DNA of 64,000 nucleotides, from NCBI RefSeq assembly GCF_009914755.1, contig NC_060935.1; one strand, written 5' to 3'. Source of the stretch: the human T2T-CHM13v2.0 reference genome, Homo sapiens. This document shows, piece after piece, positions 44,192-63,774 of this stretch. Position 1 is the first letter of the stretch, and each line of letters starts with the position of its first letter. Both the position numbers and the translations under genes were made by a program. The notes under the pieces are model-generated. The model made no database searches. It saw only the letters and a list, made by a program, of their open reading frames with translations, and had not been told where the DNA came from.

Positions 44192-44358
44192 GGTGAGGAT
44201 GCTCCCCTTTGAGGGCACCCCAGTGACATGGGCTTCCATAGCTGTCTTCTGCCATGCCCTCCAGAGTGCCACATGCCTGAGCACAGAGAACCCTCAGGAC
44301 TGCGGGAATGAGACGCCTCGTGCAAAAGAAGAGCGAGACCCACCAGGATGCAGAGAGG
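44192..44358 (+). pseudogene. Pseudo-exon 1 (5' boundary uncertain), Cys-rich
   Basis: ...GFHSCLLPCPPECHMPEH [frameshift] NPQDC...DPPGCRE-g|gtagga; phase 1 joins the next exon to give CREGSLCP. Confidence 0.5.
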
Positions 44359-44580
44359 GTAGGAGCTGGGGGTATAGTTGAGGAGTGGGGAACAGAAAAA
44401 CAGCTCTGGGGGAAGATGCTGGCTTTATGAGACACCTGGGCTGGGCTAGGGCTCAGAAGCCCCCTAATGGGAGAAGAGCACTGTCAGGGGTCCACTTGTG
44501 CCCCTGTGGGATCGTGGGTGACCCACCGCTCCTGGAAGCTAAGTCTTAGTCCTAATTACTGCATGGCTGTCCCCCTACAG

Positions 44581-44798
44581 GTAGTCTCTGTCCTAACTCA
44601 CCACCTGCTCCCTGTCCCCCGGGAACTTTCCTGTCCGGAGCAGGACCCCACAATGCCTCCTTCTGCCACCTCTGCCCTCCCAGGTTCTTCAACCCCTGGC
44701 CCGGCCAGGATGCCTGTTTCCCCTGTGGCTCAGAGGCCACCCAGCCAGAGAAGGGCAAGGACACGTGTGTCTGCCGGGGGCCTGGGCGAGTGTTCCAA
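44581..44798 (+). pseudogene. Pseudo-exon 2, ephrin-receptor-like Cys repeat
   Basis: tacag|...caa|gtatgt; open: SLCPNSPPAPCPPGTFLSGAGPHNASFCHLCPPRFFNPWPGQDACFPCGSEATQPEKGKDTCVCRGPGRVFQ. Confidence 0.9.
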
Positions 44799-44921
44799 GT
44801 ATGTCCTCTGGCAGGGGGGCCCAAGGACAGGCTGCGTTTCCAGGACTGTTTTGGTCTCAAGTCAAACTCGGCTCAGGTGTAACTTGACCAGGGTTGGCTC
44901 AGGTTTCCAAGTGACTTGGGG

Positions 44922-45090
44922 ATAGGGTTGCCAGATAAAATACAGGGTACCCAGTTAAACTTGAATTTCAGATAAATAACAAACTTTTTTTTAGTCTTGC
45001 ATGGGACATAGTTATACCAAAAAAAAAAATTGTCTAAAATTCAAATTTAACTGGGTGACCTGTGTTTTCATTTGCTAAATCTGGCTCGCC
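44922..45090. mobile_element. MER53-like palindromic DNA transposon (intronic)
   Basis: agggttgccagataaaatacagg..cccagttaaa..gaatttcag / aaattcaaatttaactggg..cctgt..atctggc inverted arms. Confidence 0.8.
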
Positions 45091-45463
45091 TTCTCCAAGA
45101 AAATGACAGACTTTATGTTGCTTTTTGCCACGATCACTTCCAAAACACATCCTAGCCCAAGCCCTTCCAACTTGAACGTTCTCTGCAAGCCAACAAATGT
45201 GCATGTGAATTCTTCCTTTGCTGAATGTCTCAAGTCTCTTTTTTTATTGAAATGATAGCACCAGCCAGACCCTTACCAGAACAGGCTGGTCTCCCCCTGA
45301 CTCCTCCCCTGCCCTGTTTATTGCTCATTTCCCCGCCCCTGCCCTTGTCTTCTGGCCCATTTCCAAAAGGGTCACAGCCAAAAACCTGGGCATGGTTCAC
45401 CACAACGAAGTATTAACCAACCAACATGAACCAGCACTCCTCCCTCCCCCTCCCCGCCCCCAG

Positions 45464-45624
45464 CCCAGTGACAGTCGGTACCCCTGCCTCCCGGGCCACC
45501 GAGACTTTGGAGAGCCAATGGGCTGTGTCCAGTGGGAACACAGGAGCTGCAAGGACGGAGCCACTGGAATCAGGAGGGGCTATGTTTGACCAAGGCTCAG
45601 TGGAATGACCACTGTGCCCACGAG
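45464..45624 (+). pseudogene. Pseudo-exon 3 (-1 frameshift ~45563)
   Basis: cccag|PSDSRYPCLPGHRDFGEPMGCVQWEHRSCKDGA[fs]WNQEGLCLTKAQWNDHCAHE|gtagga; 161 nt. Confidence 0.85.
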
Positions 45625-45843
45625 GTAGGAGAATGCCCATCTATTATGTCCTTGGCCTTCCTGCCCCTCCACCCTCCCATTCAAATGTCCACCATTCCAG
45701 CCACTGGGCTCATTCCATTGCCCCTCTCTGGAAATATAGAGGTCAGTACTTTGCACTCTCAGGCAGTTCCTAGAAGCAGCTGGAGAGAATGAGGAAGAGC
45801 TTCCCCAGGGAGGTGTCCCCAAGAAGTTTGAGTCTTTGTGCAG

Positions 45844-46027
45844 GTGTGTGCCACACCAGGAGATGCCCATGGACATGACCCAAGCCCTGGGGCTCTGCCT
45901 GTGCTGGGGACAACAGTCAAGCAGAATGTGCAGCCCTCTGTGCCCAGAGAGACAGAGACACATCTTGCAGCTCAGCTGCCCTGATGGCATCCCACAGATT
46001 TCTGTCACTGAAGGCATGGGGAGTCAG
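45844..46027 (+). pseudogene. Pseudo-exon 4 (+1 frameshift ~45880)
   Basis: tgcag|VCATPGDAHGHD[fs]QALGLCLCWGQQSSRMCSPLCPERQRHILQLSCPDGIPQISVTEGMGSQ|gtacag; 184 nt. Confidence 0.8.
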
Positions 46028-46470
46028 GTACAGTACTCTGAGGTCCTACCTCATGCAGAGCCAGGGCCTGTGACTTCTGCCTCCAAAGAGGGAGCATGCA
46101 GGACATGCCTATGTGCAGGGTCCAGAGGCTGCTGCTGCCTGGCCCACATCACTGGCACCTCACCAACATCAGAGGCTCAGAACCAGAGCAAGGCCCCTTT
46201 GTTGATTTTATTTCATCCTACAAAACTCCTTGAATAAGAGGTCATTGTGTTCATGAAAGAAGAGGGACACTGTCCAAGAGGTCATGACTCCAGGCTGCCC
46301 CTGCCCCATGGAGTTCTTGGAACTATTCCCACCCCCACCTCCCTTGTGTCCTTTCAGGACACTCAGACACAGCTCAGGGAAGGGGCTGTGTTCGCCCTCC
46401 CTTCCTACTGGGCAAGTGTGTGACTCCGTGTCTTGAGGGAAGATCTGACACTGCCTCTTTTCGTTTCCAG

Positions 46471-46576
46471 GATTTTTACCTTCTGGACCAGCCTTCCCCA
46501 CCACGTGCTGTGGGCCATCCCTGCAACTTGGACTTAGGGCAGAAGTCTGTCCCCCTCTATGTGGTCAAGATGGATG
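46471..46576 (+). pseudogene. Pseudo-exon 5
   Basis: ttccag|DFYLLDQPSPPRAVGHPCNLDLGQKSVPLYVVKMD-g|gtaaga. Confidence 0.85.
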
Positions 46577-46882
46577 GTAAGAGAGCTGGACAGATGGAGG
46601 CCACAGGGAGGCCTGTGGCTCGGGACCACACACATGCAAGCCTTGTCCTTACCAGGGCGTGTGCTCTGTCCCATGACCAGAAGCTGAGGTTTGACAGGGC
46701 AACCACTCCCCTAGGGAGGGCTCCCTGAGAACTGCATGCAAATTCTGACCCCCCTCAATGTTTCAGAAAGTTGAAGCTACCACGTGCAAACCAGGCTGAA
46801 CAGCTGCTGATTATATACATGCTCTTGGGAAAACTCTTACCCCGGTCCCTGCAGGGTCAGAGGGAATCCCTGCTTGTTCTAG

Positions 46883-47265
46883 CGCTTGGCTTCCTGGGCC
46901 TGACCAGACCAGATGGTGAGCTACTACACTCCCTAGGCCTTCCCCTCGGGGATCCCAGGTGTCCAGACCAGGATCCAGGTGGGCATCGCAGCTCACCTGT
47001 TGCCCCTCCTATCCCTCCCCTACCCTTCCCAGGTCCCAGCACAAACCCATCTGAAGAGTGGCAGCTCTCCCTCATTCTCTGAATCTTACCTAGGAAAGTC
47101 TAGGGAAGGACATCTGGACTCTTCTTGGTCACTGAGCCTCAACTCCACACATCTTGGGGATCTGCTGCCCCCAGAGCCAGGCATCCGAAACCCCACAGTC
47201 TGCCTCCAAGTCAATGATACCCTGGCCTTCCTGGTGACTCATGAGCATTACCCAGAGTATGACCT
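46883..47265 (+). pseudogene. Pseudo-exon 6 (one frameshifted exon, or two exons)
   Basis: ttctag|ALGFLGLTRPDGELLHSLGL...[frame change]...PEPGIRNPTVCLQVNDTLAFLVTHEHYPEYD-ct|gtgagt. Confidence 0.7.
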
Positions 47266-47377
47266 GTGAGTGTCCAGAGACCACAGCCCCATCATCATGG
47301 AGGCCCTAGAGAGGAAATGCCCCTGCATCAGCCACCACTCCCAAAGGCAACGTATTCCCTCCTTTCTCTCTCCTCAG

Positions 47378-47540
47378 GGGCCACTTCTATAACACACTGG
47401 AGCAATATGACTGGCGGCGCTTCCGGGCCCTGGCTGAGGAGTCCCAGCTCTATGAGCAAAGCCTCAGCCTCTTTCTGCAGCAGTTCCAAAAGCCGGGCAT
47501 TTATGTCTTTCGTCTGAGCAGCAACCGACATCGGAAGATG
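47378..47540 (+). pseudogene. Pseudo-exon 7
   Basis: cctcag|GHFYNTLEQYDWRRFRALAEESQLYEQSLSLFLQQFQKPGIYVFRLSSNRHRKM|gtttgt; phase 2 matches the upstream donor. Confidence 0.88.
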
Positions 47541-47614
47541 GTTTGTCTACGATAATTTGCCTCATTTAAGACATTATCCCATTATTTCCCCTCTCTTTAA
47601 AAAATACTGCTGCA

Positions 47615-47927
<313 letters not shown>

Positions 47928-48539
47928 TCAGACAGATCTGCAGGGAAGGAGATGCCCTGATGTCCCTATCAGTTTCAGGGTCCCACAATGCTAACAGATG
48001 GTCCTGGGATGCCAAAGTTCATTTCACAGCAACCCAGCATGTGCTGTGCAAGGAGGGGAAGGTTGAGAGGATGGGAACACAAGTATGTATTCAGGGACAT
48101 CAATGGCATTGAGCGGCTTAGGACCTCTGGCTATCTCTCCCAATCCTCCACTTTGTCTCCCCCCGACCCCCATCTGCCAAGCCCACCTATGCATGGTTTT
48201 ATCTGTGTGACCTGCACATTGCACCACCACACTGATCCAGGTGTGCTGTTAGTGCCACACACAGCATTTAGTATCTCCCTGTCAGCACAACATCCAAGAG
48301 GTTTTACTGGCTTAGTCCCAGAACATGCACACAGCTCCCTCATACAGATAGTCATCTGATTTGAGTCATCTGATGTGAACAAGTTTCCCAGGAAAACTCT
48401 GATTCTGCCTCCCAGTCCCCAGGTTTACACAGTCATCCAACTATTTGGTCGATGTTGGCCGGCGTGGGTCCCACTCTGTCTTGTGGCCAGTCTCTGGCAG
48501 ACAGTGGGACAAAGACTGAACAGACTTCTTTCCATCCAT

Positions 48540-48707
48540 TATGTCCGGGCCCTCCCGCCAGGGGGCCAGTGCTGTGGGGAAGGGCCCTTTGCCTCCACAA
48601 CTCCCAGGTATCTCATCCAGACTGGCATCGCCAGGATCCCCCAGGCCCTGAAGAGGTCTGGCTGGCCAGGACTCCTGGGGGAGATTGTGCTGCTCCTGGG
48701 GCTTTGA
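48540..48707 (+). pseudogene. Pseudo-exon 8 (acceptor AG>AT; TGA within the presumptive transmembrane segment)
   Basis: cttctttccatccAT|YVRALPPGGQCCGEGPFASTTPRYLIQTGIARIPQALKRSGWPGLLGEIVLLLGL*|gtaaag. Confidence 0.8.
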
Positions 48708-49539
48708 GTAAAGCCAGACAAGCGACATCTTAACCACTCCACAAGACCACCTCTCCAATCCCCTATAAGTGGGTCTTCCATTCCTGTTTATGATAAGCAT
48801 TCTAATAGTTGCTAAGATGCAAAGGTGACAAAGGTGCAGTTTCAAGCCTCCAGGGCTTGAAACAAATACATGTCAGCAAATATAATGGAGCTAGCTAAAG
48901 CATGTCCAGGGTGCACACCAAGGCAGGAGTTGACTGTTCTCCCTGGAGAGGGTGGAGGTCAGGACAGACTTTCCAGAAGAGTTGATCCCTGAATGAGGTT
49001 TGAAACAGGAGAATTATTAATATAATGTGGTCCCTGTACTACCAGAGGGTTGGTAAGTTGAGGAGGGGGTACGCAGTGGGGAGGAGGAACAGAGATGAGA
49101 AGGGGAGTATTGTGAGCACAGCAAGCACATAGGCATGAAACAACACACATCTCCTCTGGTGACCAAACGGGGTTTCCCATGACTGGAGCTGAGGTGTGAG
49201 GACAAGGATAAGGCTGGAACTGGGAGGGAGACTAAAATGGGATGGCCTCCAGGCCCTGCTAAGAAGTTTGGACTCTAACCCCTAGGCAAGGAATAAGAAC
49301 TTTCAGCAAGTGAGAAAACCTGGTCCAACTTTTATTTGTACTCTAGCAGTAGGGTGGAGGACAGAGATGGATCAGAGGGGGAAAAACGACAGAGACCTAA
49401 ACAATTAGTCCAAGCAAGAGAGGATGAGGTGCTCCCTAACCACGGTGAAGTGCGACCTGTTTCCTTTCAGAGTCTTCAGGAAGGATGCTGCTCCCTCAGC
49501 TCGCCCTTCCCTTCCCACTCCCCATTATGTACTCTGTAG

Positions 49540-49714
49540 ATGCAGTGTCACAGCCTGAGCTGGGCTCGGAAGGCTGCTCCCCACCCCACCTTCAGGAGAC
49601 ATCAGCAAGAATGCAACCTCGATGCCTACACTTCCCCAAGAACTGGGATAATGTCAATAAGGAGAGGCCGATCTCACCAAGACTCTGACGCCCCCAGGGT
49701 TGAGGGGGGTCCTG
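49540..49714 (+). pseudogene. Pseudo-exon 9
   Basis: ctgtag|MQCHSLSWARKAAPHPTFRRHQQECNLDAYTSPRTGIMSIRRGRSHQDSDAPRVEGGP-g|gtgagt. Confidence 0.85.
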
Positions 49715-50366
49715 GTGAGTGACAGGTGGGCTAGAATCCCAGAGGCACCCCCAAATCCAACTAGCCAGCTCCTGCTTCTTTTTTCCATCTTCCAAGATTG
49801 CTCAATTCTCAATTCCTCTTCATTCATCCACTGATTTGCTCAAAAAATCTTTTCTGAGTGGTACTGTATGTCATAACACTGCCGGGCACTAGGCATAGGC
49901 AATATAGAGCAGGAAAGAGACATCTAAACACACTTTCCAAAAGAAACATAGTATAACCGTGTACAAAGCAGCCAAGTTACACAGTGACCAGTACTATCTA
50001 GAGGAGCAAGTTGCAGAAGGTATTTATTGTATGTCACGCTGAAGGGTTCCCCTTCTATCCTTGCTACTCACAGCATGGTCCTCAGACAGCCACACTGGGA
50101 TTTGTTTGTGCTCCTAGAACTTTAATGTAGATATGAATTTCCTGGGGATCTTCTGCTTCAGTAGGTCTTGGATGAGGCCTGAGATTCTGCATTTCTAACA
50201 AATTCCTCAGTAGCACTGATGCTCCTTACCCAAGAACTACACTTTCAGTAGCAAGACTGTGCCTGGACTGTTGAGGCTCTATAGGAAGAAGATGCATGGA
50301 AGATCTGTAGGGAAGCTCATATTTGCATTTCAGGAGGATAATCCTTCTTCCCTCCGACCCCCACAG

Positions 50367-50488
50367 GTGGGAGCTGGGAGGCTGAGGAGCAGGTAGATCT
50401 GGAGTGGTTTGATACAGAGGCCTTCTTTGGAGACTGCCTCAGGCAGTCTCTGTCAGTGACAGCCAAACTCAGCCACACGAAGGAAGAG
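50367..50488 (+). pseudogene. Pseudo-exon 10
   Basis: ccacag|GSWEAEEQVDLEWFDTEAFFGDCLRQSLSVTAKLSHTKEE|gtaact. Confidence 0.88.
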
Positions 50489-51093
50489 GTAACTGGCAGC
50501 TCCAGGCAACACTTCTACCCAAGACTGGAGGAACATGTGGGGCTAGAAAGAGTCTCCTCTTCAGGAGAGTTGGTTATAGGACATAGAGTCCAAAGAATAT
50601 GGAACATAGAGTCCTAAAGGAATCAGAATAAAGGAGAGTATATGGGAAGGGGAGATAGAGGATTTCAGATTAAAATTAGAACTGATTTCATGAAACCTAG
50701 GGCTTCGGACCAGTAATAGGGATTCTACCAAGGCCACCATTGGAGTTCCTTCTCAGATCTCCATCCCTAGTCCTCGGTAGCCCAACTAGGTGAGCAAATT
50801 TATGCCAGTAGATGGCAGGCATTAGAAGCAAAAAGAATACATTAGAAGTCCAAGTACCAAAACTGGGCCAGGGCTTCCCCAGCAGAATGTGCATGCTGAG
50901 ACTGGCTGGGACGAGCCAGTGTCTGTCCTCATTCACTCTTTCCAAGTGTCTGGGTTGGGGGTTGGGGGTTGGGGGGTGGGGTTCTGGAGTCTCTCCAGCT
51001 GTTGGCAGCAGGGGGCGCTGCAATCACAACAGTGAGAGGCTGGGTGGCTCCGGGAACAGAGTTCACACACACTCAATCCACCCTCTCTCACAG

Positions 51094-51219
51094 CTCAAAC
51101 TCCTCTACCTTAAACTTCTGGGTGAAGCCCGTTCTCTCCAGCAGCTGTGGGGAACAAGGCGCTGCCTCCCAGCCTCCGCTAACCGGCTTCTGAGGAGCGT
51201 GCAGAGGGAGCAGCAGCAG
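51094..51219 (+). pseudogene. Pseudo-exon 11
   Basis: tcacag|LKLLYLKLLGEARSLQQLWGTRRCLPASANRLLRSVQREQQQ|gtgggc. Confidence 0.85.
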
Positions 51220-51515
51220 GTGGGCTTGGTTCACGCCTTCCTCTCTGGTCTCTGTGCCCAAACACAACTCCCTCCCCTCACTGAGGTCCAGGCTCCCTCC
51301 CTTAGCACCTCCCCAACCTGTTCCATCTCCCTGGCCCTAAAGCTCTTACCTACAGTTCCCACCATCTCTGGGAATTTCTCATCCCCTTTGCCGCTGCTGC
51401 CATGCCTGTCCAGAATAACTCTGGAGTTCCCAAGGTGAGTGGGGTGTCCCCGAGCTTGCTGTCCCTGGTGGCTGTAGCGCCTGCAGGTGAGCAGGCAGGG
51501 TTGTCTCTGACCCAG

Positions 51516-51712
51516 GCTGCTGAGGCAGCTGCCTGGGCTGCAGAAGAGAAGGCCAGCCGGAGGAGGCACCTGGCAGGCGAGTACGCAGCCAGCCTTCGTC
51601 ACCAACTCAAGCTCCTTCGCCAAAACCTCCTCGGGAGGCAGGAGCAGTGGGCCTCTTTCTGCTCCACGCTGAGGGAGGTTCAGCAGCAGCTGAAAGCACA
51701 GATGGGCTCCAG
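51516..51712 (+). pseudogene. Pseudo-exon 12, coiled coil (alternative same-phase end at 51751)
   Basis: acccag|AAEAAAWAAEEKASRRRHLAGEYAASLRHQLKLLRQNLLGRQEQWASFCSTLREVQQQLKAQMGS-ag|gtcaga. Confidence 0.8.
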
Positions 51713-51887
51713 GTCAGAGAAATCCTCTCCGGCTGGGCAGAACCCAGAAAAGTGTGGATCTGGCCAACCTGGATCAGACTTAGGGAGACATGAAATGGGG
51801 AGGAGAGAATGTGGCTGCAGGGGGTCCCGGAACTGGCCAAAACAAAACGTCCTTTTCCCACCCCTGATTGCTCCTGTGCCCCTGCAG

Positions 51888-52009
51888 GGCAGTTCCCCAG
51901 CTGGACACGGTGCTGGGCCACCTGTCCCAGGTCGTGCTGCAGGAGGGCCACCGCCTGAAGGCCTGGGGCATTCTGGGCACCGGCACTGGGGCGGAGCTAC
52001 TGAGGCCAG
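51888..52009 (+). pseudogene. Pseudo-exon 13
   Basis: ctgcag|AVPQLDTVLGHLSQVVLQEGHRLKAWGILGTGTGAELLRP-g|gtgagc. Confidence 0.88.
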
Positions 52010-52645
52010 GTGAGCTTTGCTTGGGCCTCAGCCAGGGCCCCCCAGGAAACCTGGCCCTGAATCAGGGCAACTAGCCCTGTAGAAACTCCAGTTCCACCCC
52101 CAGACACCCAGCAGGGGAGGAGAGGTAGAAGAGGGCAAAACAGAGCGGACACCCCAAGGTCGGGAGGGGCTTCCCATGCAATGCCTGCCCAAAAGAAGAA
52201 GGAGCCTCGAAAGTGGGAAGAACCAAGGAAGAAACAAAGCCATGGCAAGTCATAGCTTTATAGATCCGGAGGCACTTCCTGAAAATAAAAGCCTGGCAGA
52301 TGAAGGCAAACGGCCAAGTTTGGTAAATGATGAACCTGTCTTGGGGTCTCGCAGGCCTGCTGAGTCCTGGGAATCCCGTAGCCCCCCTGTAGGCTGTTGC
52401 CACCATTTCCCGAGGCTTTTCCAGTCTCTGCCGGCCTGCGCAATGATATCACAATGGCACGTGGAATACTGCTCTGGAGTTAGCAAAGATGAGACCCCTG
52501 CCCCCTCAGGAGCACAATGTCTGTGGAGGCTGGGGAGGAGTTCTCACCAGCTCCTTCCAGTCACCAGCCAAGGGAGTCCCCGCATGTTCCCTCTCCCACC
52601 GGCCCCCAGCCCAGGGCTAAGCAGGCAATGATTGCTTTCCTGCAG

Positions 52646-52870
52646 CCCCAGCAGGCCCTCCTGGTGCTGATGACATCAGTGTGAACCCCGTCACCAAGTT
52701 GATGGTCCCTGGCCCCAACTCCTTGATGCTTCCAGCCAGCGGCCACGCAGGCTCCATACCCCCTGGCTACTTCATCCACCCTGACACTGGGAGGGTGCTG
52801 CCCGAGGCTGGACACCTGGGATATGATCTGCTGAGAGCTACCCTGGTGCCCACTATGGACACCAATGCCG
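52646..52870 (+). pseudogene. Pseudo-exon 14
   Basis: ctgcag|PAGPPGADDISVNPVTKLMVPGPNSLMLPASGHAGSIPPGYFIHPDTGRVLPEAGHLGYDLLRATLVPTMDTNA-g|gtgagc. Confidence 0.9.
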
Positions 52871-53194
52871 GTGAGCCCCTGGCCCACTGACTATCCCCAA
52901 CTCAGCTCTGGGCTTCAGAGATGAGGCAGGGCTTGCTGGGACTCTCAGGAATGAGCTCCCAGGGAGCACAGCACAGGACGCAGGGCTCTCTCCTTGGACA
53001 GTGGGGCTTGGTGACCAGCAGAGTAGTAAATACTTCCTTCCCCTCCTCATCTTGACATTCTTGCTGGATCCAGAAGGTGCCATGAGCTGCATGGTAAAAG
53101 GAGGCAGGTCCCAAGGCCCCTCTGTCCTGCTCTGCAGGGCTGAAGGAGGCTGGTGCATTAAAGGGTACCAACAGCTCCCTGTATCCCTGTCCAG

Positions 53195-53529
53195 GTGGTG
53201 TCCGAACATCAGAAGCTGCCATCCTGCCCTATGTGCCCTACCCAACCAGTCCCACCACAGGTTCCCCTCCAGCCACGCACCTGCCCATCCTGCAGCCAAG
53301 AAGGACGTCCCCGCTGGGGGCTCTCATGACAGACCCCGTCACAGGCATCAGGGTGCCCGTGCTGGCTGTGAATCTGCACCCCCAAACAAGGCAGTGGCTC
53401 ACTCTTGGGAGGACATACTGCAATCCTCTCACCAAGACCTTGGCCCCTCTGGAGATGGGGGGCCCATGGAGGATCCAGTCACAGGAGGCATCTCGCCCAT
53501 CCTGGGAGTCGGGTTGGATGAAAACACAG
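53195..53529 (+). pseudogene. Pseudo-exon 15 (-1 frameshift ~53463)
   Basis: gtccag|GVRTSEAAILPYVPYPTSPTTG...MTDPVTGIRVPVLAVNLHPQTRQWLTLGRTYCNPLTKTLAPLEMGG[fs]MEDPVTGGISPILGVGLDENT-g|gtctcc. Confidence 0.88.
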
Positions 53530-53975
53530 GTCTCCCGGCAGCCCTCAGCATTGTCCTCCCTCGCCCTCCTCCATGCCTGGCCTGGCCTCCCAGTCCCCTT
53601 CCTCTCAGCCCCCTACACCCTCCATGTTCTGATCTGAGCCACAAACTCCACCCACGACCCTCTTTCCACCCTTCATCCTCTCAGCCTCTTACCCCCAACC
53701 TTCCCTCTCCCCTTCCCCATCTCTACTCCAGTGCCCCTGGGGAGGGGAAGAGAAGCAAGGTACTTCTATAAAGTTAATGGACACTTTTCAACCAAAAAGG
53801 ACCATTTCTCCACCTGCCACCACCATGCTCTACCCCCTGCCCCCTCCCTCTCCCCCTCCTCCTTCCCTCCCACAGCTCACTTCCACCCTTGTGCCCTAGT
53901 TCCCCTTATGCCACACCTGCCTACATCCCTGCTGGTTCCCTCTCCCACCTTGCCCCCTTGGTTTCTTTCTTCCAG

Positions 53976-54356
53976 CTCAGCTACTTGTACTGGGAGGGCT
54001 GCGAGATGCTTCGGGGAACCTCTTGCTGCCTGGTGACAGCTTTGTGGAGCCACTGAGCAGGAAGACAGTCCGGCTCCAGGGGGCTTCCTGACGAGAGGGC
54101 CAGACATTGCCCCATATGGGAGGGCCACAGGCCCTGCTGGACACCAATGTGCTAGTGGCCCAGAGGCAAGTGATTGCAGTGCTTCAGCCGTGCCAGGAGA
54201 GTCCAGAGTCGGGTGTACAGGAAACTCTGGAGGCTGCCATTAAGGACATGAGACAGCCACTGGCCTTGACTCTGCACCATGTCCTGCAGCAGGCTCAGAG
54301 GCTGGAGAGGCAGCTGGTGACAGCAGATGACATTGAAGCCAGTGGTGGCAGGATAG
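53976..54356 (+). pseudogene. Pseudo-exon 16 (in-frame TGA at 54089-54091)
   Basis: ttccag|QLLVLGGLRDASGNLLLPGDSFVEPLSRKTVRLQGAS*REGQTLPHMGGPQALLDTNVLVAQRQV...IEASGGRI-g|gtatgg. Confidence 0.9.
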
Positions 54357-55384: not shown

Positions 55385-55752
55385 TGTGCATACTTTATAG
55401 CTTGGGTTGTAGGACTGAGTGAAATATAACTTCTACAGAGTCCTGAGTTCAGATTCTGAGGAATGGCAGGTGCTCAAGAACACAAGCCCCCTTCTTTTAG
55501 AAGTTGTTCTCAGCTTCTCAAAAGGTCTGATGCCACTCAATTCCCACTTGCTTCTTCCAAAACAGGCCATTAGGGCATTGTCCTTTCTTCCTTTCTGAAT
55601 TCAGAATGCTAAGTTGAGCCTAAAGAAAACAAATGTAGTGTTTGCAGGGAAGCCTCTCTGGTCAGGGACGTAGTACTTTGAACCTGGAAAGACTTCAGGG
55701 TGATGCTTAACCCGCAACTCCTCCTCTTCACTCCCTCTCCCCCTGGTGTTGG

Positions 55753-55923
55753 GAATGATGCGCTATCCTGGGACAGAGCTGTGGGCCCCAGCCCTGTATG
55801 GAATGGAGATCCCAGATCCTGAGGGCTCGGGGCTCATGGTGCCTATCCTGGGCATGGAGCATGATGAGAATTCTGGCGATGCCACACCGCTGGCAGGCTC
55901 AATGGAAGACGCTGATGGCAAAG
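55753..55923 (+). pseudogene. Pseudo-exon 17 (acceptor AG>GG at 55751-55752)
   Basis: Polypyrimidine tract then gttGG|MMRYPGTELWAPALYGMEIPDPEGSGLMVPILGMEHDENSGDATPLAGSMEDADGK-g|gtagga. Confidence 0.85.
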
Positions 55924-56342
55924 GTAGGAGAGAACTTTGGACCTCTGAGAGCTCAGGAATGTGACTTAGCTCTGGGAGAGAAAACCCCCTAAAGCTCAGG
56001 AGGGGTACCCATGTGCCAAGGGAAGGGGTCATTCTGGTCTTCTGCTAGGGCTGCTGAGACCCAAAATTAAAGGTGCCCAAAGATTCCAAAACCCCAGGAC
56101 CATAAATCATGTATGTCTCCCCTAGATTATTGGGTCCTTTCAAAGACCAGCACTTCAGAAACTCACCACCCACCCCCACGCCAGGGCTGTGGCCACCAGG
56201 AGCCCTATAATCCAGCTTAGAGCCCTTTGAAGGGCAAAAGGAGGTCAGGGGCTCTTCTGGCTTCCTTTTTGCCAGAAAAAGGACCTGCCTTCCTTCCCCA
56301 TCTCTGGTTTCTAAAGCCAGTGGTGGGCTTGGCATCCCACAG

Positions 56343-56500
56343 GTCTAATCCCAATCTCGATTGGGGCTCAAGCCATAGACCCCTGGACTAGGAAGCCTGG
56401 TCCTGTCATTGGAGCTCAAACGGATCTCTCTGCCAGAGTGGTGGTGCCCGTTGTCCAGGTGCTGGAGGCTTTACCTCGGGGAGTGAGAGACCCTGGTCTG
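56343..56500 (+). pseudogene. Pseudo-exon 18
   Basis: ccacag|LIPISIGAQAIDPWTRKPGPVIGAQTDLSARVVVPVVQVLEALPRGVRDPGL|gtatgt. Confidence 0.87.
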
Positions 56501-57607
56501 GTATGTAGGGGGGTTTATTGTATTCATTTATTCATTCATTCATTCACTCAGCAACTACATATTGAGAGCTGTGTTCCAGGCAACATGTTAGGCATTGAGA
56601 TACAAGGACAACTAGATAGGGCTCCCAAGGAACTGGCTGGCCATGGGTCCCAAACAGTGGGTGGTTCACAAGGGTGTTAAGAAAGCTCAGGGGAGGGCAT
56701 CTCAACACACACAGGAGAGCTCAAGGCTTCCCAAATGAGGTAATGCACGCAGCAGAGAGACAGCAGAGAAAGTCACTCCAGCCTCGGGGAAAGCAAATGC
56801 AAAGGCAGCAAGTATGAGAAATGTATCTTCTATCATGAAAGCCACGGGGAGCTGCTGAAGGGTTCTCAGACATGGGATATAATCAAATATAAATGCAAGA
56901 CTTTAAATTTTTGAAAATATGAAACAATACAAAACATAAGTTACTCATACAATTTTAAAGTATGTCAATGAAGAAGCAAAAGCTTTCCTGCCCATTCCTC
57001 TCCCTCCACCCACAGTCAACACCCCCATGGCATCCCCATCCAGGCACTCTTTACCTCTCCCCCTGTCTCTCCCACCAAACCCAGCCACTTCACAAGTTGG
57101 CACACCTCCTCCCATTTATTTTTATGTTTATGTATGTGTAGGTACAGTCAGCGTTCTAGAAAGCTCTCCCTGGCAGCTGTGCGGAGGATGGATGGGAGTG
57201 GGGCCAGACTAGCAGAGGAAGCCCCGTCAGGAGGTTATTGCGGTAATTCAGCCATTGGCAGATCTCCACCACAATGAAAATGATTTAGGGCCCCCATACA
57301 TTCTCAGTCTGGTTACGTTTCAGAAACTGTGATAAAAGGTATGTGATAAATAAAAGGTTCTTGTTAGAAGCCAAGAAATTTCAATTCTAGCCCTGACACC
57401 ACTGTTTCACAGGTCAGTATGTCTTCACGATATGAGGAGGGTGAGAACAATTTCCTGCCGCCACGTGCCTGTCTCCTCTGGACTTCCCAAGAGAGGAGTG
57501 GGGGCAGGAGGCATGGGGGACTCTGGAGCAGGTGTCACCAGGAGGGAGGGAGGAACCAGGGAGCTTGAAGAAAATGTATGGTTATTTTTCTAGCTAAAAC
57601 CACGTTG

Positions 57608-57870
<263 letters not shown>

Positions 57871-58023
57871 TAAAACCAAGTTGATGGCCTCACCAAGTTT
57901 AGTCATAGATACCCAAGGTCAGGGAGGGCCATTACCCTGTGAAACTTTGGGGATCTACGGCTGGACCACGTGGGGCCATGAGCAGAAAAAGCCAGTAAGC
58001 CCTAAACAGGCTGGATATTGTAG

Positions 58024-58164
58024 CTGGACATCCTGGAGCAGGAGTTGAGAGCCCAGGAGCAGTACTGGTGCCACCAGGAACAGGAGGAGGAGCAGCTACT
58101 GGAACAGCTGGGGCACCTCAGCCAGGAGCTCCACTCCACGGCAGAAAGTGGCGCTGAGCAGCAG
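58024..58164 (+). pseudogene. Pseudo-exon 19, coiled coil
   Basis: ttgtag|LDILEQELRAQEQYWCHQEQEEEQLLEQLGHLSQELHSTAESGAEQQ|gtgagg. Confidence 0.85.
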
Positions 58165-58446
58165 GTGAGGCCCAGAGGCACCACCTCACAGTCCCCACCC
58201 ATCTGCCAAGATTGCACAGTTTTCTCTTTGAAAGTTTGGAGTCCTTTTCTCCCTCAACCATGGGAATGAAATCCATCTCAGAAAAGACACAGTCCCAAGA
58301 TTCCCCAGCCCCAGGCCCAAGATTTCAGTCACCCCTAAGTATCTAAGCAGGACAGAGGTAGGGGAGGAAAAGCAAACAGGAGCCCCACCCAGAGCTCCTG
58401 CCTTCCCCTCCGAGGCCCATTCCTTTGTCCCTTCTGTCCTACATAG

Positions 58447-58564
58447 CTGAAGGCTGAAGAGGAGGCCTGCCAGGCCCTTGAGTCCCGCTACCTGCAGGAG
58501 ATGGAGAGAAGAGCCAGGGCTCTGAGCACACACAGCAGCCCAGAGCGGGGCCTGCTCTCTCAAG
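58447..58564 (+). pseudogene. Pseudo-exon 20
   Basis: acatag|LKAEEEACQALESRYLQEMERRARALSTHSSPERGLLSQ-g|gtggga. Confidence 0.85.
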
Positions 58565-58807
58565 GTGGGAAAGCATCTCCTAGGCTCAGATCCCCACAGC
58601 AGAAATCTCCAGGGAGTGCATCACCACAGATAGCTGCCCCGTGGGGAGCCCCTCCTGCCCTCTGAATGTGCTCAGCTCTCCCAGGCTCAGCCAGGCCCTG
58701 GCTCTTACCTGCAGGTTCCCCTGACTCCGATAATCTATTGTCTTTTCTTCTCCTCCCTACCCCTGGTGGTGGTCGCTGCCATGTGGCCTTTTCTCTGCCA
58801 TTTGCAG

Positions 58808-58986
58808 CAGAGAGGAGTGGGAACAGGAGGCACAGGTGGTGCTAGGTATGCAGAAGGTCCTGCAGTTTAGGGCAGGCAGCAGAAAAGCTTAGGCAAGCAG
58901 CTGGCCGGCTGCAGGGCCAGGAGGAGGAGATGCGGCTGCAGCAAAGCAGGAATCAGAGCCCACAGGTCTGGAACCGCCCCAGGAAG
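58808..58986 (+). pseudogene. Pseudo-exon 21 (two indels)
   Basis: ttgcag|[fs]EWEQEAQVVLGMQKVLQ[fs ~58866]LGQAAEKLRQAAGRLQGQEEEMRLQQSRNQSPQVWNRPRK|gtgacg; TAG at 58843 in the spliced frame. Confidence 0.8.
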
Positions 58987-59175
58987 GTGACGCTCTGAGG
59001 CTGACAAGGGTCCCCACATGTGATGAGCACATCCTCCCACATCATCAGATGTGGCTCTTCAGGGCAATGTAATATTCAGGGGTAGGTGGGCTCAAGGAAC
59101 CTTGGATGTGCCAGAAGGGGAGTGAGAAGAAAGAAGGCTCATCTTAACTTGGCCATTACGTTCCCTGTGTTGTAG

Positions 59176-59301
59176 GTGGTTCAGCGTCCCTCTGATGAGT
59201 TTCAGTGGGTGGTGAGGGAGAGACAGAACTTCCTGGCTAAGGCCCTGGGTCAGCTGCAGTACCGACGGGAGTGGAGCTGCCTCCAGCTGTTGCACACCCA
59301 G
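59176..59301 (+). pseudogene. Pseudo-exon 22
   Basis: ttgtag|VVQRPSDEFQWVVRERQNFLAKALGQLQYRREWSCLQLLHTQ|gtgctg. Confidence 0.83.
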
Positions 59302-59439
59302 GTGCTGATCCCTGGACTGGACTTGGCTGAGGAGATCTGTATTTCCATCTTTGATAGGGGGCCTCAGAAAGAGACTCCCAAGGCAACCACGTGGGACAGG
59401 TGGGGACCAAGCATGGAACTCTGTGCTATTTCATCCTAG

Positions 59440-59620
59440 ATGATTGCCTCAAGAACCCCTGTGTGTTTGGAGAATTACCCTGGAGACATATTCTATGGAA
59501 CAGTCACCACTTCTCTCAGGGACCGGGCTGCTACCTGCCCCCTGTTGATCCCATTCCTGAAGCAGCTCACTGCAGCGCTAGTAGGAGCTCCAGGGCTGGA
59601 GGATCAGAGGCCAGAAACAG
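59440..59620 (+). pseudogene. Pseudo-exon 23
   Basis: tcctag|MIASRTPVCLENYPGDIFYGTVTTSLRDRAATCPLLIPFLKQLTAALVGAPGLEDQRPET-g|gtcagg. Confidence 0.8.
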
Positions 59621-59763
59621 GTCAGGCTGGTCCCTATTCCAGCGTTGTCTTCTGCAGCCAATCCTGGCCATTTCAATAGGTCCTAATGCTACACTTAGAA
59701 TTCCCAGCACCATAGGCGTGTGTCCCCAGTAGGTTCTTTAGGAAGAACATTAGAGGAACCAAA

Positions 59764-60599
<836 letters not shown>

Positions 60600-60689
60600 T
60601 CCAATGCTACAGCTGGCTCCTTTTGGCTTTGGCCACAACCCTAGGCCCTCACCTCAATAACTATTTTATTCCCCTCTGTTTGGATACAG

Positions 60690-60806
60690 ATAAAGCTGAC
60701 ATCATCTGGACTTCACCATTCTTCTCCATCCTGAAGAAAACAGACATCTGGTCCCAAGCCCACAAGGAAGAAGCTGAATTGCAAAAATAAGTGTATCACA
60801 AACCAG
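60690..60806 (+). pseudogene. Pseudo-exon 24 (in-frame TAA at 60788-60790)
   Basis: atacag|KADIIWTSPFFSILKKTDIWSQAHKEEAELQK*VYHKP-g|gtaacc; phase 1-1 fits its neighbours. Confidence 0.7.
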
Positions 60807-62724
60807 GTAACCTTTTCCCTTGTAGCTCCTGTTTGGGATTCTCATGGGGGGCACTGAAGGTATGTGATGGGGTAACCCCTGGGATCTAGGAATGTTAGAA
60901 TCCTGCCTTGCCAAACATCTCTTTCTCTCTACCCCCACACTAAAGTTCCCCAAGTGATTTTCCCATATAAGGAATAACAAATAGGAATCAAAGTACCCTT
61001 ATAACTATAACTGAGCAAATTTCCAAAAGGGAATTTCCAAAGGCCCCCTGCCTTCCCCATCAAACATGAATCTAAATCTTGGGACTTCACCCCATACCAG
61101 CCAGCCACATGTTAGAAGGAGCTAATGTAAAGGTGTGAGGCAGGAAAGGGAAAAAATGAAAAGGGAAAAAAACAGAAGAAATGAACGAAGAGAAGACCTT
61201 GCTCCCCAAAGGGACCCCAGATCACTTTACCAATACCACTCCTTGGAATTGGAAGTCAAGAGAGCACGTGGCTTTCCTAACCTGAAGAGCCAGGTCCGTT
61301 TCAACTCACACACATCCCAAGTGGAAGAGAAGTAACAGAAAATGCATGTGTGCCTTTCAGTAGACCACAGTGCAGGGCTCCAGGTAAGCACAGCACCATG
61401 AACACCCCTGAACTTGAGCAGGGAAGTGCAAACTATGGCCCACTCCATACCTCCAACTCCAACCTGCTACCTGTTTTTGCATGGCCCACAAGCTAAGAAA
61501 GATTTTACATTTTAAAATGATTAGAGAAAAAATGACAAAAGAAGAATAAAAATTTTATGGAGTGCTTTATAATATGCCACATACTATTCTAACTCTTTAG
61601 ATGTATTAACTCATTTACTTTTTACAACAACCCAGTAAACTATGTACTATTACTCATCTTATAGATGAGGGAACTGAAGCTCCTGGATAGGTCAAGAAAG
61701 TATTCAAAGATCATATTGCTAGTGAGTAGTTCAGCTGGAATTCAATCCCCAAGAGTCTTTCCCCAGACCCTGTGCTCCTCACGTGCTTCCTCAAATGAAA
61801 AGTTGTTCAACACTATGAAGGCAGTGCCAAAAGAAGATGCAGGTAACACATTTTGGTGAGTTCCCAGGAGGGCAGATCACTTGCTTTTCTGGACCAGAGA
61901 AGCAAGAGAAGGCTTTGTAGGAGAATGAGGCCATGCTTCTACCGTGAGGAAAGGGAACACTAACTTTGAACCCTAATTTTGGCTTTTGGCTAACAAAGCC
62001 TAAAATACTTACTATCTGGCCCTTTCCAGAAAAAAAAAGTTTACTGACTCCAGAGAACTTGACCAATCTCATTATTAATTCCTCCTTTCTTTGGGTGAAA
62101 CTAGGAAGGGAATGGCAGAGAAATGAGCTCTCCTTTAAGGGTTCCCAGCCCCACTTCAACCTTCGTCTTGCCATTATACTGGCCTTGTAATTTTGAGAGT
62201 AATTTTATATACATTATCTTGTTTATATCTTCTAGTTCTAGAAGATAGTAGAAGGTTATTAATTACTTTTTAATAGATGAGAACTGATGCTCAAAGAAGT
62301 TCAGTGACTTTCTTGGGGTCTTATAGAACCTGGGCCAGAACACAGGTCTTCTGACTGCTACTTCAGCAGTCTTCCCTAAACTTTGCTACCAATCCATTCT
62401 TTATTGTTCTCTCAAAAACAATTAAAAAAATAGAAATTTTAAATACTCAAGGCCATTACAGACATTCCGTACAGATATTGTAGGGAAGTAAGATTCTTAA
62501 ATATATTTAACATTTGCTGAATGCTTTCTATGTACTAGACACTGTTCTGAGTATATTACATTTAATGCTCCAAGCAACTCAAGGAAATAGAAGAAGAAAA
62601 TCTGTTGCCATCTTCTGTGGACCCTCATTCTGTCCTAGCCCCTCTGTTCCTATTGACTGAAAATCATTTTTTCCATAAAGGTGGACAGAAGACCATGTAG
62701 CATGATGCATATATAGCACAGGAG

Positions 62725-62768
62725 GATGGATGGGTGGGTGGATGGATGGATGGATGGATGATAGATGG
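62725..62768. repeat. (TGGA)n microsatellite
   Basis: Direct reading of the sequence. Confidence 0.9.
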
Positions 62769-62868
62769 TTGCAATAAACCTTTTCCTAAATTGAGTTGTG
62801 TTGTTAACATATCATTATTGTACAGAAAAGTTAGTGAAATTATTACTGGTTTCTCCTGATCTCTGTAG

Positions 62869-63020
62869 ACCCAAAGAGCTCTCTGCAGGATCTTCTAAAA
62901 CCTCAGACACTGCAGAAGGAAGAGTTGATAACTGTGCAACCCACTGACCTTTCTGCCAGGGAGTTTGTGGTTTACCAGTATGGCCTCTCCATCCTGCACC
63001 TCCTTATCCCCCAGCTTCAT
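62869..63020 (+). pseudogene. Pseudo-exon 25
   Basis: ctgtag|PKSSLQDLLKPQTLQKEELITVQPTDLSAREFVVYQYGLSILHLLIPQLH|gtaagt. Confidence 0.88.
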
Positions 63021-63687
63021 GTAAGTCTTGTTTCTGGCCTCTCTATGGAGCAGTTACTCATGGAGCCTAGAAGGTCAGGGTAGCCAGGAAGAAGCCTTTG
63101 AGATGGCAGATATTCCCTAGGATTAAGCACCTGGAACAGCAAACTTTCTAGTCTCTCCTTTAAGGGGATTTATGGGAGTTATTTTACCAATCCAAAGTCT
63201 AATCTCTCGAATGATATTAATCACAGGTAGAATGAATTAGTCACTTTCTACATGCCAGAAAATATTCTAATAACTTCCATTAATTAACTCATGTAATCCT
63301 CAAAAAACCCTATGAGACAGATACTATTATTTTTCCTATTTTAAAATTGAGCAGAAGAGACACAGTGGTTACATAAACTTACCCAAGATCACACAGCCAA
63401 AAAGGCAGAGCCAAGGTTAAAATCTAGGCATCATGGCTCAAATCTCTCTAGTCTAGTCAAGTTCTATTTAGAAAAGTAGTAAATTGATTGTCATATTTAG
63501 CATAAATATTAAATATGCAGTTACTCTTTCCATTTTCCTGTATACTAAGCCTACTTACCCTGTTGCAATTTAAATTAATGCCCCAATGCATTTACTTCTC
63601 ATCAATTTGGCTGATGCCACGTAGCTGAGATGCATGAGAATTTTTTAGCAAAAGGATAGGTTTGGTTTTGTTTTTTATTCTTTTCAG

Positions 63688-63774
63688 GCTCCAGAAATCA
63701 CCCTGAAGATTTCTTCTCATCTTCCTGCCATGGAAGCCCAAGGCAGTGCCTTCCAAGGTGCCTTCTTCTACCAG
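63688..63774 (+). pseudogene. Pseudo-exon 26 (last in window)
   Basis: tttcag|APEITLKISSHLPAMEAQGSAFQGAFFYQ|gtgctg; no stop, so the gene continues. Confidence 0.85.

What the first reader, a model, noticed from the sequence alone, without database searches (positions are those of the whole stretch)
44192..63774. Hidden 26-exon fossil gene: probable unitary pseudogene of a large uncharacterised membrane receptor-like protein
Seen: 26 segments bounded almost entirely by AG/GT, with splice phases that chain across ~19.6 kb and translate to ~1,550 codons of ordered, protein-like sequence. None of this appears as a long ORF in the track. Introns are retained and all recognised Alus lie in introns, so it is not a retrocopy. 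Inference: a single-copy gene lost in this primate lineage and possibly intact in other mammals or fish. I do not recognise an intact human paralogue it could have been duplicated from.
Basis: partly seen in the sequence, partly recalled or inferred. Interest (0 to 1): 0.92.

Follow-up and report, generated by a model that had tools for sequence, protein, structure and literature searches.

The report
Dead human copy of Gm32742 gene
This stretch of human chromosome 11 holds the broken, intron-containing remains of a large membrane-protein gene that is intact from fish to mouse but has never been studied, so it is a real ancient gene lost on the human line.

Summary
On the + strand, 27 colinear exon remnants lie between window 44199 and 63774. 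Three more lie just beyond the window, to about 69578.

They align to residues 4-1706 of full-length (about 1550-1700 aa) mammalian proteins named only "Predicted gene 32742" (mouse Gm32742), rat RGD1562811 and zebrafish-type si:dkey-103g5.4. The spliced-alignment score is 5498, against 240 and 273 for reversed and shuffled controls.

All 27 donors are GT and 24 of 26 acceptors are AG. All 4 masked repeats in the span are intronic.

The human copy carries ten disabling lesions in the window:
- five frameshifts, in exons 3, 4, 16 and 22 (two in exon 22);
- three in-frame stops, in exons 9, 17 and 25;
- two lost acceptors, at exons 9 and 18.

A literal splice from the ATG stops after 167 codons.

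A six-frame search of the whole human assembly finds the protein at this locus only. No Homo protein, and no primate protein longer than 710 aa, appears among the homologues. It is therefore a unitary, unprocessed pseudogene. RefSeq labels its transcribed pieces as two lncRNAs.

The ancestral product reads as a type I membrane protein. Only a weak ephrin-receptor-like cysteine-rich domain is recognised. Function and time of death remain open.

The parts
44199..44358 (+). Exon 1, coding part. ATG at 44199, signal-peptide-like hydrophobic N-terminus. Homology to Laurasiatherian N-termini starts at 44166.
   Evidence: The Colobus model P0098 starts at the same Met. Donor GT at 44359 is shared with RefSeq lncRNA LOC107984386 exon 44265-44358.
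44581..44798 (+). Exon 2, cysteine-rich ephrin-receptor-like domain.
   Evidence: 56 of 73 identical to bat. Pfam PF07699 E 0.0026, 18 bits, below the 23.1 cut-off.
45464..45624 (+). Exon 3, with a 1-nt deletion in a Thr codon at about 45563. This is the first lesion met; it leads to a stop after 167 codons.
   Evidence: Intact in the Pongo abelii P0124 and Macaca P0002 models. The donor is shared with LOC644277 exon 1.
45844..46027 (+). Exon 4, with a 1-nt insertion at about 45883-45886.
   Evidence: Macaca P0002 reads through in frame.
46471..46576 (+). Exon 5.
   Evidence: Identical in both boundaries to a LOC644277 exon.
46883..46978 (+). Exon 6, a variable linker of the ectodomain.
   Evidence: (19 of 32 identical), GT..AG.
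47094..47265 (+). Exon 7.
   Evidence: 50 of 57 identical. The Colobus and Cercocebus models splice into the same start.
47378..47540 (+). Exon 8, the conserved membrane-proximal ectodomain.
   Evidence: Identical in both boundaries to a LOC644277 exon.
48540..48707 (+). Exon 9, start of the transmembrane helix. Acceptor is AT instead of AG (48538-48539). In-frame TGA at 48705-48707 where other species have Cys. The exon end is 4 codons shorter than in monkey models.
   Evidence: The Saimiri and Cercocebus models use the exon and read CL[LF]LM there. The human lncRNA skips it.
49540..49714 (+). Exon 10, end of the transmembrane helix and the juxtamembrane segment.
   Evidence: The start is shared with a LOC644277 exon. 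The TAG at 49537-49539 is part of the acceptor, not a coding stop.
50367..50488 (+). Exon 11.
   Evidence: 33 of 41 identical.
51094..51219 (+). Exon 12, a helical segment.
51516..51751 (+). Exon 13, a helical, coiled-coil-like segment.
   Evidence: 52 of 78 identical.
51888..52009 (+). Exon 14.
   Evidence: 34 of 41 identical.
52646..52870 (+). Exon 15, first copy of the ~30-aa DPxTG-type repeat.
53195..53529 (+). Exon 16, two repeat copies. 1-nt deletion in a C run at about 53455-53462.
   Evidence: Papio, Macaca and Callithrix models are in frame.
53976..54356 (+). Exon 17, with an in-frame TGA at 54089-54091. The change is CGA to TGA at a CpG.
   Evidence: Macaca has Arg and Callithrix has Gln at this place.
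55753..55923 (+). Exon 18, a repeat copy. Acceptor is GG instead of AG (55751-55752).
   Evidence: The Saimiri model splices into this exon.
56343..56500 (+). Exon 19, a repeat copy.
58024..58164 (+). Exon 20, a helical segment.
58447..58564 (+). Exon 21.
58808..58986 (+). Exon 22. 4 nt are missing at its start, and there is a 2-nt deletion in a Ser codon at about 58863-58866.
   Evidence: Macaca P0002 reads both places in frame.
59176..59301 (+). Exon 23.
59440..59629 (+). Exon 24.
60690..60806 (+). Exon 25, with an in-frame TAA at 60788-60790 where other species have Gln.
   Evidence: Pongo pygmaeus, Macaca and Cebus models have Gln.
62869..63020 (+). Exon 26.
   Evidence: 44 of 51 identical.
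63688..63774 (+). Exon 27, the last exon inside the window. Exons 28-30 follow at window-equivalent 65331-65475, 65918-66115 and 69432-69557.
   Evidence: By the supplied gene table, a minus-strand alternative BTG4 exon at 63559-63812 overlaps it.
43114..43264 (+). Stray 151-bp copy (94% identical) of the intron 1 / exon 2 boundary (44528-44678).
   Evidence: These are the only two copies in the genome.

Best explanation
This is the human orthologue of the vertebrate gene known only as mouse Gm32742, rat RGD1562811 and zebrafish-type si:dkey-103g5.4. It is preserved as an unprocessed, single-copy (unitary) pseudogene of 30 exons over about 25.4 kb. Shown: the exon order, splice phases and sequence are kept, but the reading frame is destroyed at ten places in the window, and translation from the conserved ATG ends after 167 codons. 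Shown: pieces of it are still transcribed and spliced at the old sites, and RefSeq files them as lncRNAs LOC107984386 and LOC644277. Inferred from the orthologues' sequence: the ancestral product was a type I membrane protein. It had a signal peptide, a disulfide-rich ectodomain of about 440 aa with one ephrin-receptor-like cysteine-rich module, and a single transmembrane helix encoded by exons 9-10. Its cytoplasmic part of about 1200 aa was built of helical stretches, at least five copies of a ~30-residue DPxTG-type repeat (exons 15-19), and a conserved C-terminal region. Inferred and weak: such a build suggests a receptor or adhesion-type protein whose tail acts as a scaffold. Its biochemical function is unknown. 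None of the ten lesions is seen in the monkey or orang-utan gene models that cover the same place, so the visible damage is young. Yet no primate in the database has a model longer than 710 aa, so constraint was probably already relaxed earlier in primates.
For: Homology: the ORF at 53098-53634 found 55 mammalian proteins (E down to 2.7e-49) among 1478 candidates, including full-length forms of 1546-1706 aa.

Colinearity: the spliced alignment scores 5498, against 240 and 273 for controls. The same four DP-called frameshift sites (exons 3, 4, 16, 22) recur with five mammalian orthologues (P0028, P0013, P0031, P0035, P0012), with P0035 showing two extra. The same non-canonical junctions recur too: exons 8/9 and 17/18 in all five, exons 9/10 and 21/22 in four of five each.

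Lesions were read base by base.

Orthology: in a 24-row tree, human and macaque are sisters (support 100) inside the rodent-containing clade (99), apart from the bat/carnivore/ungulate clade and the armadillo.

Single copy: 30 of 30 genome matches of the bat protein are at this locus. The DNA of exons 16-17 matches once.

Synteny hint: a Scotinomys model (P0023) fuses this protein with a HOATZ-like domain (PF17664, E 1e-41). By the supplied gene table, HOATZ is the next + strand protein-coding gene downstream in human.

Distribution: 0 of 56 named rows of 938-2986 aa is a primate. The 11 primate rows are 210-710 aa.

Transcription: 7 of the 8 listed lncRNA exon intervals overlap pseudogene exons. 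Exons 5 and 8 share both boundaries exactly, exon 10 shares its start, and exons 1 and 3 share their donors.

Relaxed constraint: human differs at 9 of 160 positions that are invariant in the bat plus 11 or more other vertebrates, including a conserved Cys. Most other mammals differ at 0-5.
Against: The protein-level divergence of the human copy is not clearly raised. At sites nearly invariant in 8 non-primate mammals, human differs at 92 of 997 (9.2%), inside the 4.2-14.2% range of presumably working lineages. In one search one supposedly working mammal (Hyaena) shows 13 changes, more than human.

Synteny in other species was not checked on DNA.

Only one human haplotype (T2T-CHM13) was read, so fixation of each lesion is assumed.

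The whole-genome protein searches ran with a stricter first look, so matches under about 60 bits could be missed. A very divergent paralogue is therefore not excluded.

The primate proteins are automatic gene models. Several read into introns or skip exons, so 'lesion absent in monkey' rests on models, not on their DNA.
Confidence: 0.93

Rival explanations
1. The locus still makes something useful. One candidate is a short product: a C-terminal isoform from an internal start, as gene models in many mammals and in macaque and Cebus suggest. The other is a functional lncRNA that reuses the old exons.
For: Separate C-terminal models recur: Macaca P0096 (389 aa, residues 1326-1706), Cebus P0102 (383 aa), and buffalo, dingo, tiger, camel, narwhal and seal models starting between residues 1201 and 1279. 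Human exons 28-30 are open. RefSeq lncRNAs use the old splice sites.
Against: In human the TAA in exon 25 lies inside that C-terminal frame. The exon 27/28 junction is 2 nt out of phase with canonical sites. The lncRNA models skip exons and have no conserved frame. No expression or conservation data were available.
Confidence: 0.05
2. It is a duplicated pseudogene whose working parent sits elsewhere in the human genome.
For: Two weak matches on chromosome 2 to residues 32-96 of the fish protein.
Against: Those matches cover only the generic cysteine-rich module, at 37% identity, and belong to ORFs full of CxxCPxG-type repeats. 30 of 30 matches of the bat protein are at this locus. No Homo protein appears in 60 + 88 homologue rows. 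The gene tree follows the species tree.
Confidence: 0.01
3. It is a polymorphic pseudogene, or an artefact of this assembly: the gene works in most people.
For: Only one haplotype was read.
Against: There are ten independent lesions of four kinds. RefSeq finds no coding model here. Orang-utan models are also fragmentary and have lost conserved cysteines.
Confidence: 0.01

Closest known systems
Mouse Gm32742 / rat RGD1562811 / zebrafish-type si:dkey-103g5.4 (uncharacterised vertebrate protein family)
   Same: Same gene. The human conceptual translation is 78% identical to the bat orthologue over 1454 tree-alignment columns. The exon-by-exon order is the same, and the domain order is the same (signal, Cys-rich ectodomain, TM, repeat-bearing tail).
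   Different: The human copy cannot be translated beyond codon 167. Non-mammalian members are 400-700 aa longer.
Classical human unitary pseudogenes such as GULOP, the urate oxidase pseudogene and CMAHP (named from memory, not from a call)
   Same: Intron-containing remnant with no working copy in the genome (tested here). At the ancestral locus, inferred from the gene tree and a single HOATZ-fusion model, not checked on DNA. Still partly transcribed.
   Different: The lost function is unknown here. RefSeq labels the remnant as lncRNAs, not as a pseudogene.
Ephrin-receptor-like cysteine-rich domain, Pfam PF07699
   Same: Exon 2 and its orthologues match the model in 12 of 18 family members scanned. 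A profile of the family finds EphB2 in the PDB at E 0.0041.
   Different: Only 1 of 18 members (Naja P0068, 28.5 bits) passes the 23.1-bit cut-off. There is no kinase, and nothing else of an Eph receptor is present.
Plakin (plectin) repeats
   Same: Superficial only: a recurring [ILVM]-D-P-x-T-G core.
   Different: No Pfam Plectin hit at E up to 1 in 18 members. No PDB sequence match for the repeat-bearing fragment P0121 at E up to 10. The lead is rejected as unsupported.

Membership tests
Unitary (unprocessed, single-copy) pseudogene | Clear homology to a protein-coding gene that is intact in other species | tested here: met
   full-length orthologues in 35 named mammal rows and 21 named non-mammal rows; DP score 5498 against 240/273 for controls.
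Unitary (unprocessed, single-copy) pseudogene | Disabling mutations in the reading frame or splice sites | tested here: met
   5 frameshifts, 3 in-frame stops and 2 lost acceptors. Literal splice stops at codon 168.
Unitary (unprocessed, single-copy) pseudogene | Introns retained (not a retrocopy) | tested here: met
   26 introns in the window; 27 of 27 donors GT and 24 of 26 acceptors AG.
Unitary (unprocessed, single-copy) pseudogene | No functional paralogue in the same genome | tested here: met
   all matches outside the generic Cys-rich module are at this locus. Caveat: the first look was strict, so matches under about 60 bits may be missed.
Unitary (unprocessed, single-copy) pseudogene | Lies at the orthologous (syntenic) position | tested here: inconclusive
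   The gene tree follows the species tree, and a rodent model fuses it to HOATZ. No non-human vertebrate genome is held, so gene order was not read directly.
Unitary (unprocessed, single-copy) pseudogene | Lesions fixed in the species | not testable with these tools
   Only T2T-CHM13 is available.
Ephrin_rec_like domain (PF07699) | Score at or above Pfam's gathering cut-off (23.1 bits) | tested here: not met
   Human exon 2 ORF scores 18 bits and bat 17.7 bits. 1 of 18 family members passes. It resembles the domain, but membership is not shown for the human sequence.
Type I single-pass membrane protein (ancestral product) | N-terminal signal-like segment, one internal hydrophobic helix, cysteines concentrated on the N-terminal side | tested here: met
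   Kyte-Doolittle windows above 1.6 start at residues 15-17 and 472-483. 30 of 45 Cys lie before residue 444. Weaker hydrophobic stretches at 1397-1399 and 1558-1568 are unexplained. No dedicated predictor was run.

The most novel reading that the evidence does not exclude
An ancient gene family, uncharacterised in the searchable literature, encodes a vertebrate single-pass membrane protein with a new ~30-residue cytoplasmic repeat. It was lost stepwise in primates. The full-length form decayed first, while a C-terminal isoform of about 390 aa stayed open in monkeys. That isoform was closed only on the great-ape/human line, by the exon 25 TAA (Gln in orang-utan) and the exon 27/28 phase defect. 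The last step would then be a hominid-age loss of a gene kept for more than 400 million years.
Probability: 0.2. Interest if true: 0.7.

Novelty: new member of a known kind. Interest (0 to 1): 0.55.

Why it matters
Human unitary pseudogenes mark functions that our lineage gave up, and the known list is short. This one is large (30 exons) and old: orthologues reach coelacanth, paddlefish and teleosts. RefSeq annotates it only as two lncRNAs. Its parent family has no paper about it in the searchable library. For mouse work on Gm32742, the finding means there is no human counterpart. For human genetics, LOC644277 and LOC107984386 are transcribed relics rather than new lncRNA genes. It also gives a clean case for dating relaxed constraint across primates.

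Tried and rejected
No fold or fold search was therefore obtained. My idea that the membrane-proximal ectodomain (exons 7-8) is cupredoxin/ephrin-like stays untested.

The protein atlas returned only the family's own clusters for the whole protein. It returned nothing usable for the repeat region.

The plakin-repeat lead is not supported.

PDB sequence searches gave only EphB2 at E 0.0041 for the family profile. They gave nothing meaningful for P0121 and P0104.

A test for long neutral drift at near-invariant mammalian sites was inconclusive.

I tried to see whether the unnamed 1830-aa protein P0035 is a primate form. The tree leaves it unresolved among primates and rodents, and pairwise identities do not help.

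Rfam found nothing in 41000-64000.

Pfam on 102 + strand ORFs of the window gave sub-threshold hits in 6 of 102. Only the Ephrin_rec_like hit recurs in the orthologues.

Literature: LOC644277, 0 papers. dkey-103g5.4, 0 papers. LOC107984386, LOC102553270 and LOC101037121, 0 papers. Gm32742 or RGD1562811, 2 papers; I saw only the matching passages, and both are rows in differential-expression tables. The search on unitary pseudogene, POU2AF1 and BTG4 listed nothing relevant (listing only). Supplementary tables of gene-loss screens were not searched and may list this locus.

Full report
**What is in the sequence**

Between 44000 and 64000 there is no long ORF. There are 220 stop-to-stop ORFs of 50 aa or more, and the longest on the + strand is 298 aa. 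Several short + strand frames nevertheless read like protein. Pfam on 102 of them gave sub-threshold hits in 6. Only one proved meaningful: Ephrin_rec_like, E 0.0026 and 18 bits against a cut-off of 23.1, at 44556-44879.

**Homologues**

The ORF at 53098-53634 was searched against longer proteins. It found 55 mammalian proteins among 1478 candidates, with E down to 2.7e-49. Sources name them only 'Predicted gene 32742' (Mus and other rodents), 'RGD1562811' (rat) or 'uncharacterized protein LOC...'. Full-length forms have 1546-1706 aa.

With the 1706-aa Rhinolophus protein P0028 as query, proteins of 938-2986 aa gave 60 rows:
- 35 named non-primate mammals plus 2 unnamed;
- 21 named turtles, crocodilians, birds, a gecko, a snake, frogs, paddlefish, teleosts ('si:dkey-103g5.4') and coelacanth, plus 2 unnamed.

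None of the 56 named rows is a primate and none is Homo.

Proteins under 938 aa gave 88 rows. Eleven are primate models of 210-710 aa: Saimiri, Cebus, Callithrix, Macaca (two), Cercocebus, Colobus, Papio, Pongo (two) and Propithecus. Again none is Homo.

**Exon map**

tblastn and a spliced aligner written for this purpose lay residues 4-1552 of P0028 on 27 colinear + strand exons. The aligner uses BLOSUM62 and allows phase-aware GT/GC..AG introns, frameshift states and a costly free jump. The score is 5498. The reversed and shuffled protein score 240 and 273.

Marmota, Glossophaga, the unnamed P0035 and Mus spicilegus give largely the same introns and the same four DP-called frameshift sites. 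P0035 adds two more. The junctions at exons 8/9 and 17/18 are non-canonical in all five. Those at exons 9/10 and 21/22 are non-canonical in four of five each.

A turtle scores 2261 and a killifish 1495, and they still share many intron positions. These six were chosen from the 79 proteins then held.

After reading the four non-canonical junctions base by base, 27 of 27 donors are GT and 24 of 26 acceptors are AG. Exons total 4589 nt from the ATG at 44199, which is also where the Colobus model starts. GC is 0.59 in exons against 0.49 in introns. All 4 masked repeats in the span are intronic.

The whole-genome search and the fetched flank L009 add three exons at window-equivalent positions:
- exon 28, 65331-65475;
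- exon 29, 65918-66115;
- exon 30, 69432-69557, ending at a stop a few codons later.

These three are open. However, exon 27 (phase 0, donor GT at 63775) meets the exon 28 acceptor (AG at 65329-65330) 2 nt out of phase. The only in-frame junction needs a GC donor two bases further on. The Pongo pygmaeus model reads through this donor.

**Lesions in the window**

- Exon 3: 1 nt missing in a Thr codon, about 45563.
- Exon 4: 1 extra C, about 45883-45886.
- Exon 9: acceptor AT instead of AG (48538-48539).
- Exon 9: TGA at 48705-48707 at a Cys codon, with the exon end four codons shorter than in monkeys.
- Exon 16: 1 nt missing in a C run, about 53455-53462.
- Exon 17: TGA at 54089-54091, from CGA to TGA at a CpG.
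- Exon 18: acceptor GG instead of AG (55751-55752).
- Exon 22: 4 nt missing at its start.
- Exon 22: 2 nt missing in a Ser codon, about 58863-58866.
- Exon 25: TAA at 60788-60790 at a Gln codon.

The TAG at 49537-49539 is only the acceptor of exon 10. A literal splice from the ATG stops at codon 168.

**Orthologue, not duplicate**

In a 24-row tree (23 of the 79 proteins then held, plus the human read-through with X at breaks), human and macaque are sisters (support 100). They sit inside a clade with the rodents (99), apart from bats, carnivores and ungulates (99) and from the armadillo.

A six-frame search of the 3.117-Gb assembly with P0028 gave 30 matches, all at C11:111458166-111483557. 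The killifish orthologue gave 8 of 10 matches here. The other 2 are an inverted pair on chromosome 2, covering residues 32-96 only. Their ORFs are full of generic CxxCPxG repeats. Both protein searches ran with a stricter first look, so weak matches could be missed.

The DNA of exons 16-17 is single copy.

One rodent model (Scotinomys, P0023) runs from this protein into a HOATZ-like domain (PF17664, E 1e-41). By the supplied gene table, HOATZ is the next + strand protein-coding gene downstream in human. That is a hint of conserved gene order, not a test.

**Age of the damage**

For every one of the ten lesions, at least one other primate model is in frame or uses the exon:
- exon 3: Pongo abelii, Macaca;
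- exon 4: Macaca;
- exon 9 acceptor and exon 9 end: Saimiri, Cercocebus;
- exon 16: Papio, Macaca, Callithrix;
- exon 17: Macaca (Arg), Callithrix (Gln);
- exon 18: Saimiri;
- exon 22, both lesions: Macaca;
- exon 25: Pongo pygmaeus, Macaca, Cebus.

So none of the lesions is seen to be shared with monkeys, and two are younger than the orang-utan split. These are automatic models, and some read into introns or skip exons. No primate model exceeds 710 aa. Orang-utan models have lost conserved cysteines and splice like the human lncRNA.

Constraint tests are mixed. At sites nearly invariant in 8 non-primate mammals, human differs at 92 of 997 (9.2%), within the 4.2-14.2% seen in 15 other mammals (alignment pieces under 55% identity were dropped). 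At 160 covered positions invariant in the bat and 11 or more other vertebrates, human differs at 9, mostly radical changes that include a conserved Cys. Other mammals show 0-5, except Hyaena at 13. One of the nine human changes is shared with Macaca, Cebus and Pongo.

The time of death is therefore open, somewhere between early anthropoids and great apes.

**Transcription**

7 of the 8 listed exon intervals of LOC107984386 and LOC644277 overlap pseudogene exons. Exons 5 and 8 match on both boundaries, exon 10 on its start, and exons 1 and 3 on their donors. Exon 9, whose acceptor is lost, is skipped.

**The ancestral protein**

In P0028, strongly hydrophobic 19-residue windows start at residues 15-17 and 472-483. 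30 of 45 cysteines lie before residue 444. This reads as a signal peptide, a disulfide-rich ectodomain, one membrane helix and a tail of about 1200 aa.

Pfam sees only Ephrin_rec_like, in 12 of 18 members scanned, and only 1 is above the cut-off. A family profile finds only EphB2 in the PDB, at E 0.0041.

Profile-profile comparison of exon-sized pieces of the 38-row alignment shows a ~30-residue repeat:
- exon 16a against 16b, probability 97.7;
- 16b against 19, 96.6;
- 16b against 18, 93.3;
- 15 against 16b, 91.1.

Seven of the 15 pairs compared scored below 20.

A 1024-position profile of the tail finds 911 cluster representatives at E up to 0.001, 495 at up to 1e-10 and 130 at up to 1e-30. 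Some are proteins of 2.4-7.5 thousand residues. Of 14 such hits scanned, 4 show a sub-threshold or borderline Ephrin_rec_like match, 1 reaches the cut-off, and the other 9 show nothing. The family is therefore wide and unknown to Pfam.

**Literature**

No paper in the searchable library names LOC644277, LOC107984386 or dkey-103g5.4. Gm32742 and RGD1562811 each occur once, as rows in expression tables; I saw only those passages.

**Verdict**

This is a real, unprocessed, single-copy pseudogene of an ancient and unstudied vertebrate membrane-protein gene. As a kind it is ordinary, a unitary pseudogene. As an instance it appears undescribed and is annotated as lncRNA.

Noticed in passing
window 43114-43264: A 151-bp copy, 94% identical, of the intron 1 / exon 2 boundary (44528-44678). 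It lies 1.4 kb upstream of the original, and these are the only two copies in the genome. It keeps the acceptor and an open frame for 38 codons.
   Followed up: partly
G000:C2:110463608-110463805 (-) and C2:110752395-110752592 (+); locus L010: An inverted pair on chromosome 2 matches only the cysteine-rich module of the fish orthologue (37% identity, TAA inside). Neighbouring ORFs carry more CxxCPxG-type repeats. This is probably another gene's or pseudogene's ephrin-receptor-like repeats.
   Followed up: partly
window 63559-63812 (-) against exon 27 at 63688-63774 (+); also 55395-55619 (-): By the supplied gene table, alternative 5' exons of long BTG4 transcripts lie antisense inside the pseudogene. 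One of them overlaps exon 27.
   Followed up: no
proteins P0018, P0026, P0024, P0029, P0016, P0041 (start at residue 686 of P0028) and P0085-P0090, P0094, P0096, P0102 (start between residues 1201 and 1326): Many mammals have separate gene models that begin at the same internal points. This suggests internal promoters or recurrent short isoforms of the family.
   Followed up: partly
proteins P0023, P0065, P0077: Some gene models fuse this family with neighbouring genes. P0023 (Scotinomys) fuses it with a HOATZ-like domain. The unnamed P0065 and P0077 (Limosa, named NF-kappa-B inhibitor zeta-like) fuse it with ankyrin repeats.
   Followed up: partly
proteins P0058-P0063, P0076: Bird, crocodilian, gecko and frog orthologues are 2049-2442 aa, 400-700 aa longer than mammalian ones. 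Where the extra length sits was not examined.
   Followed up: no
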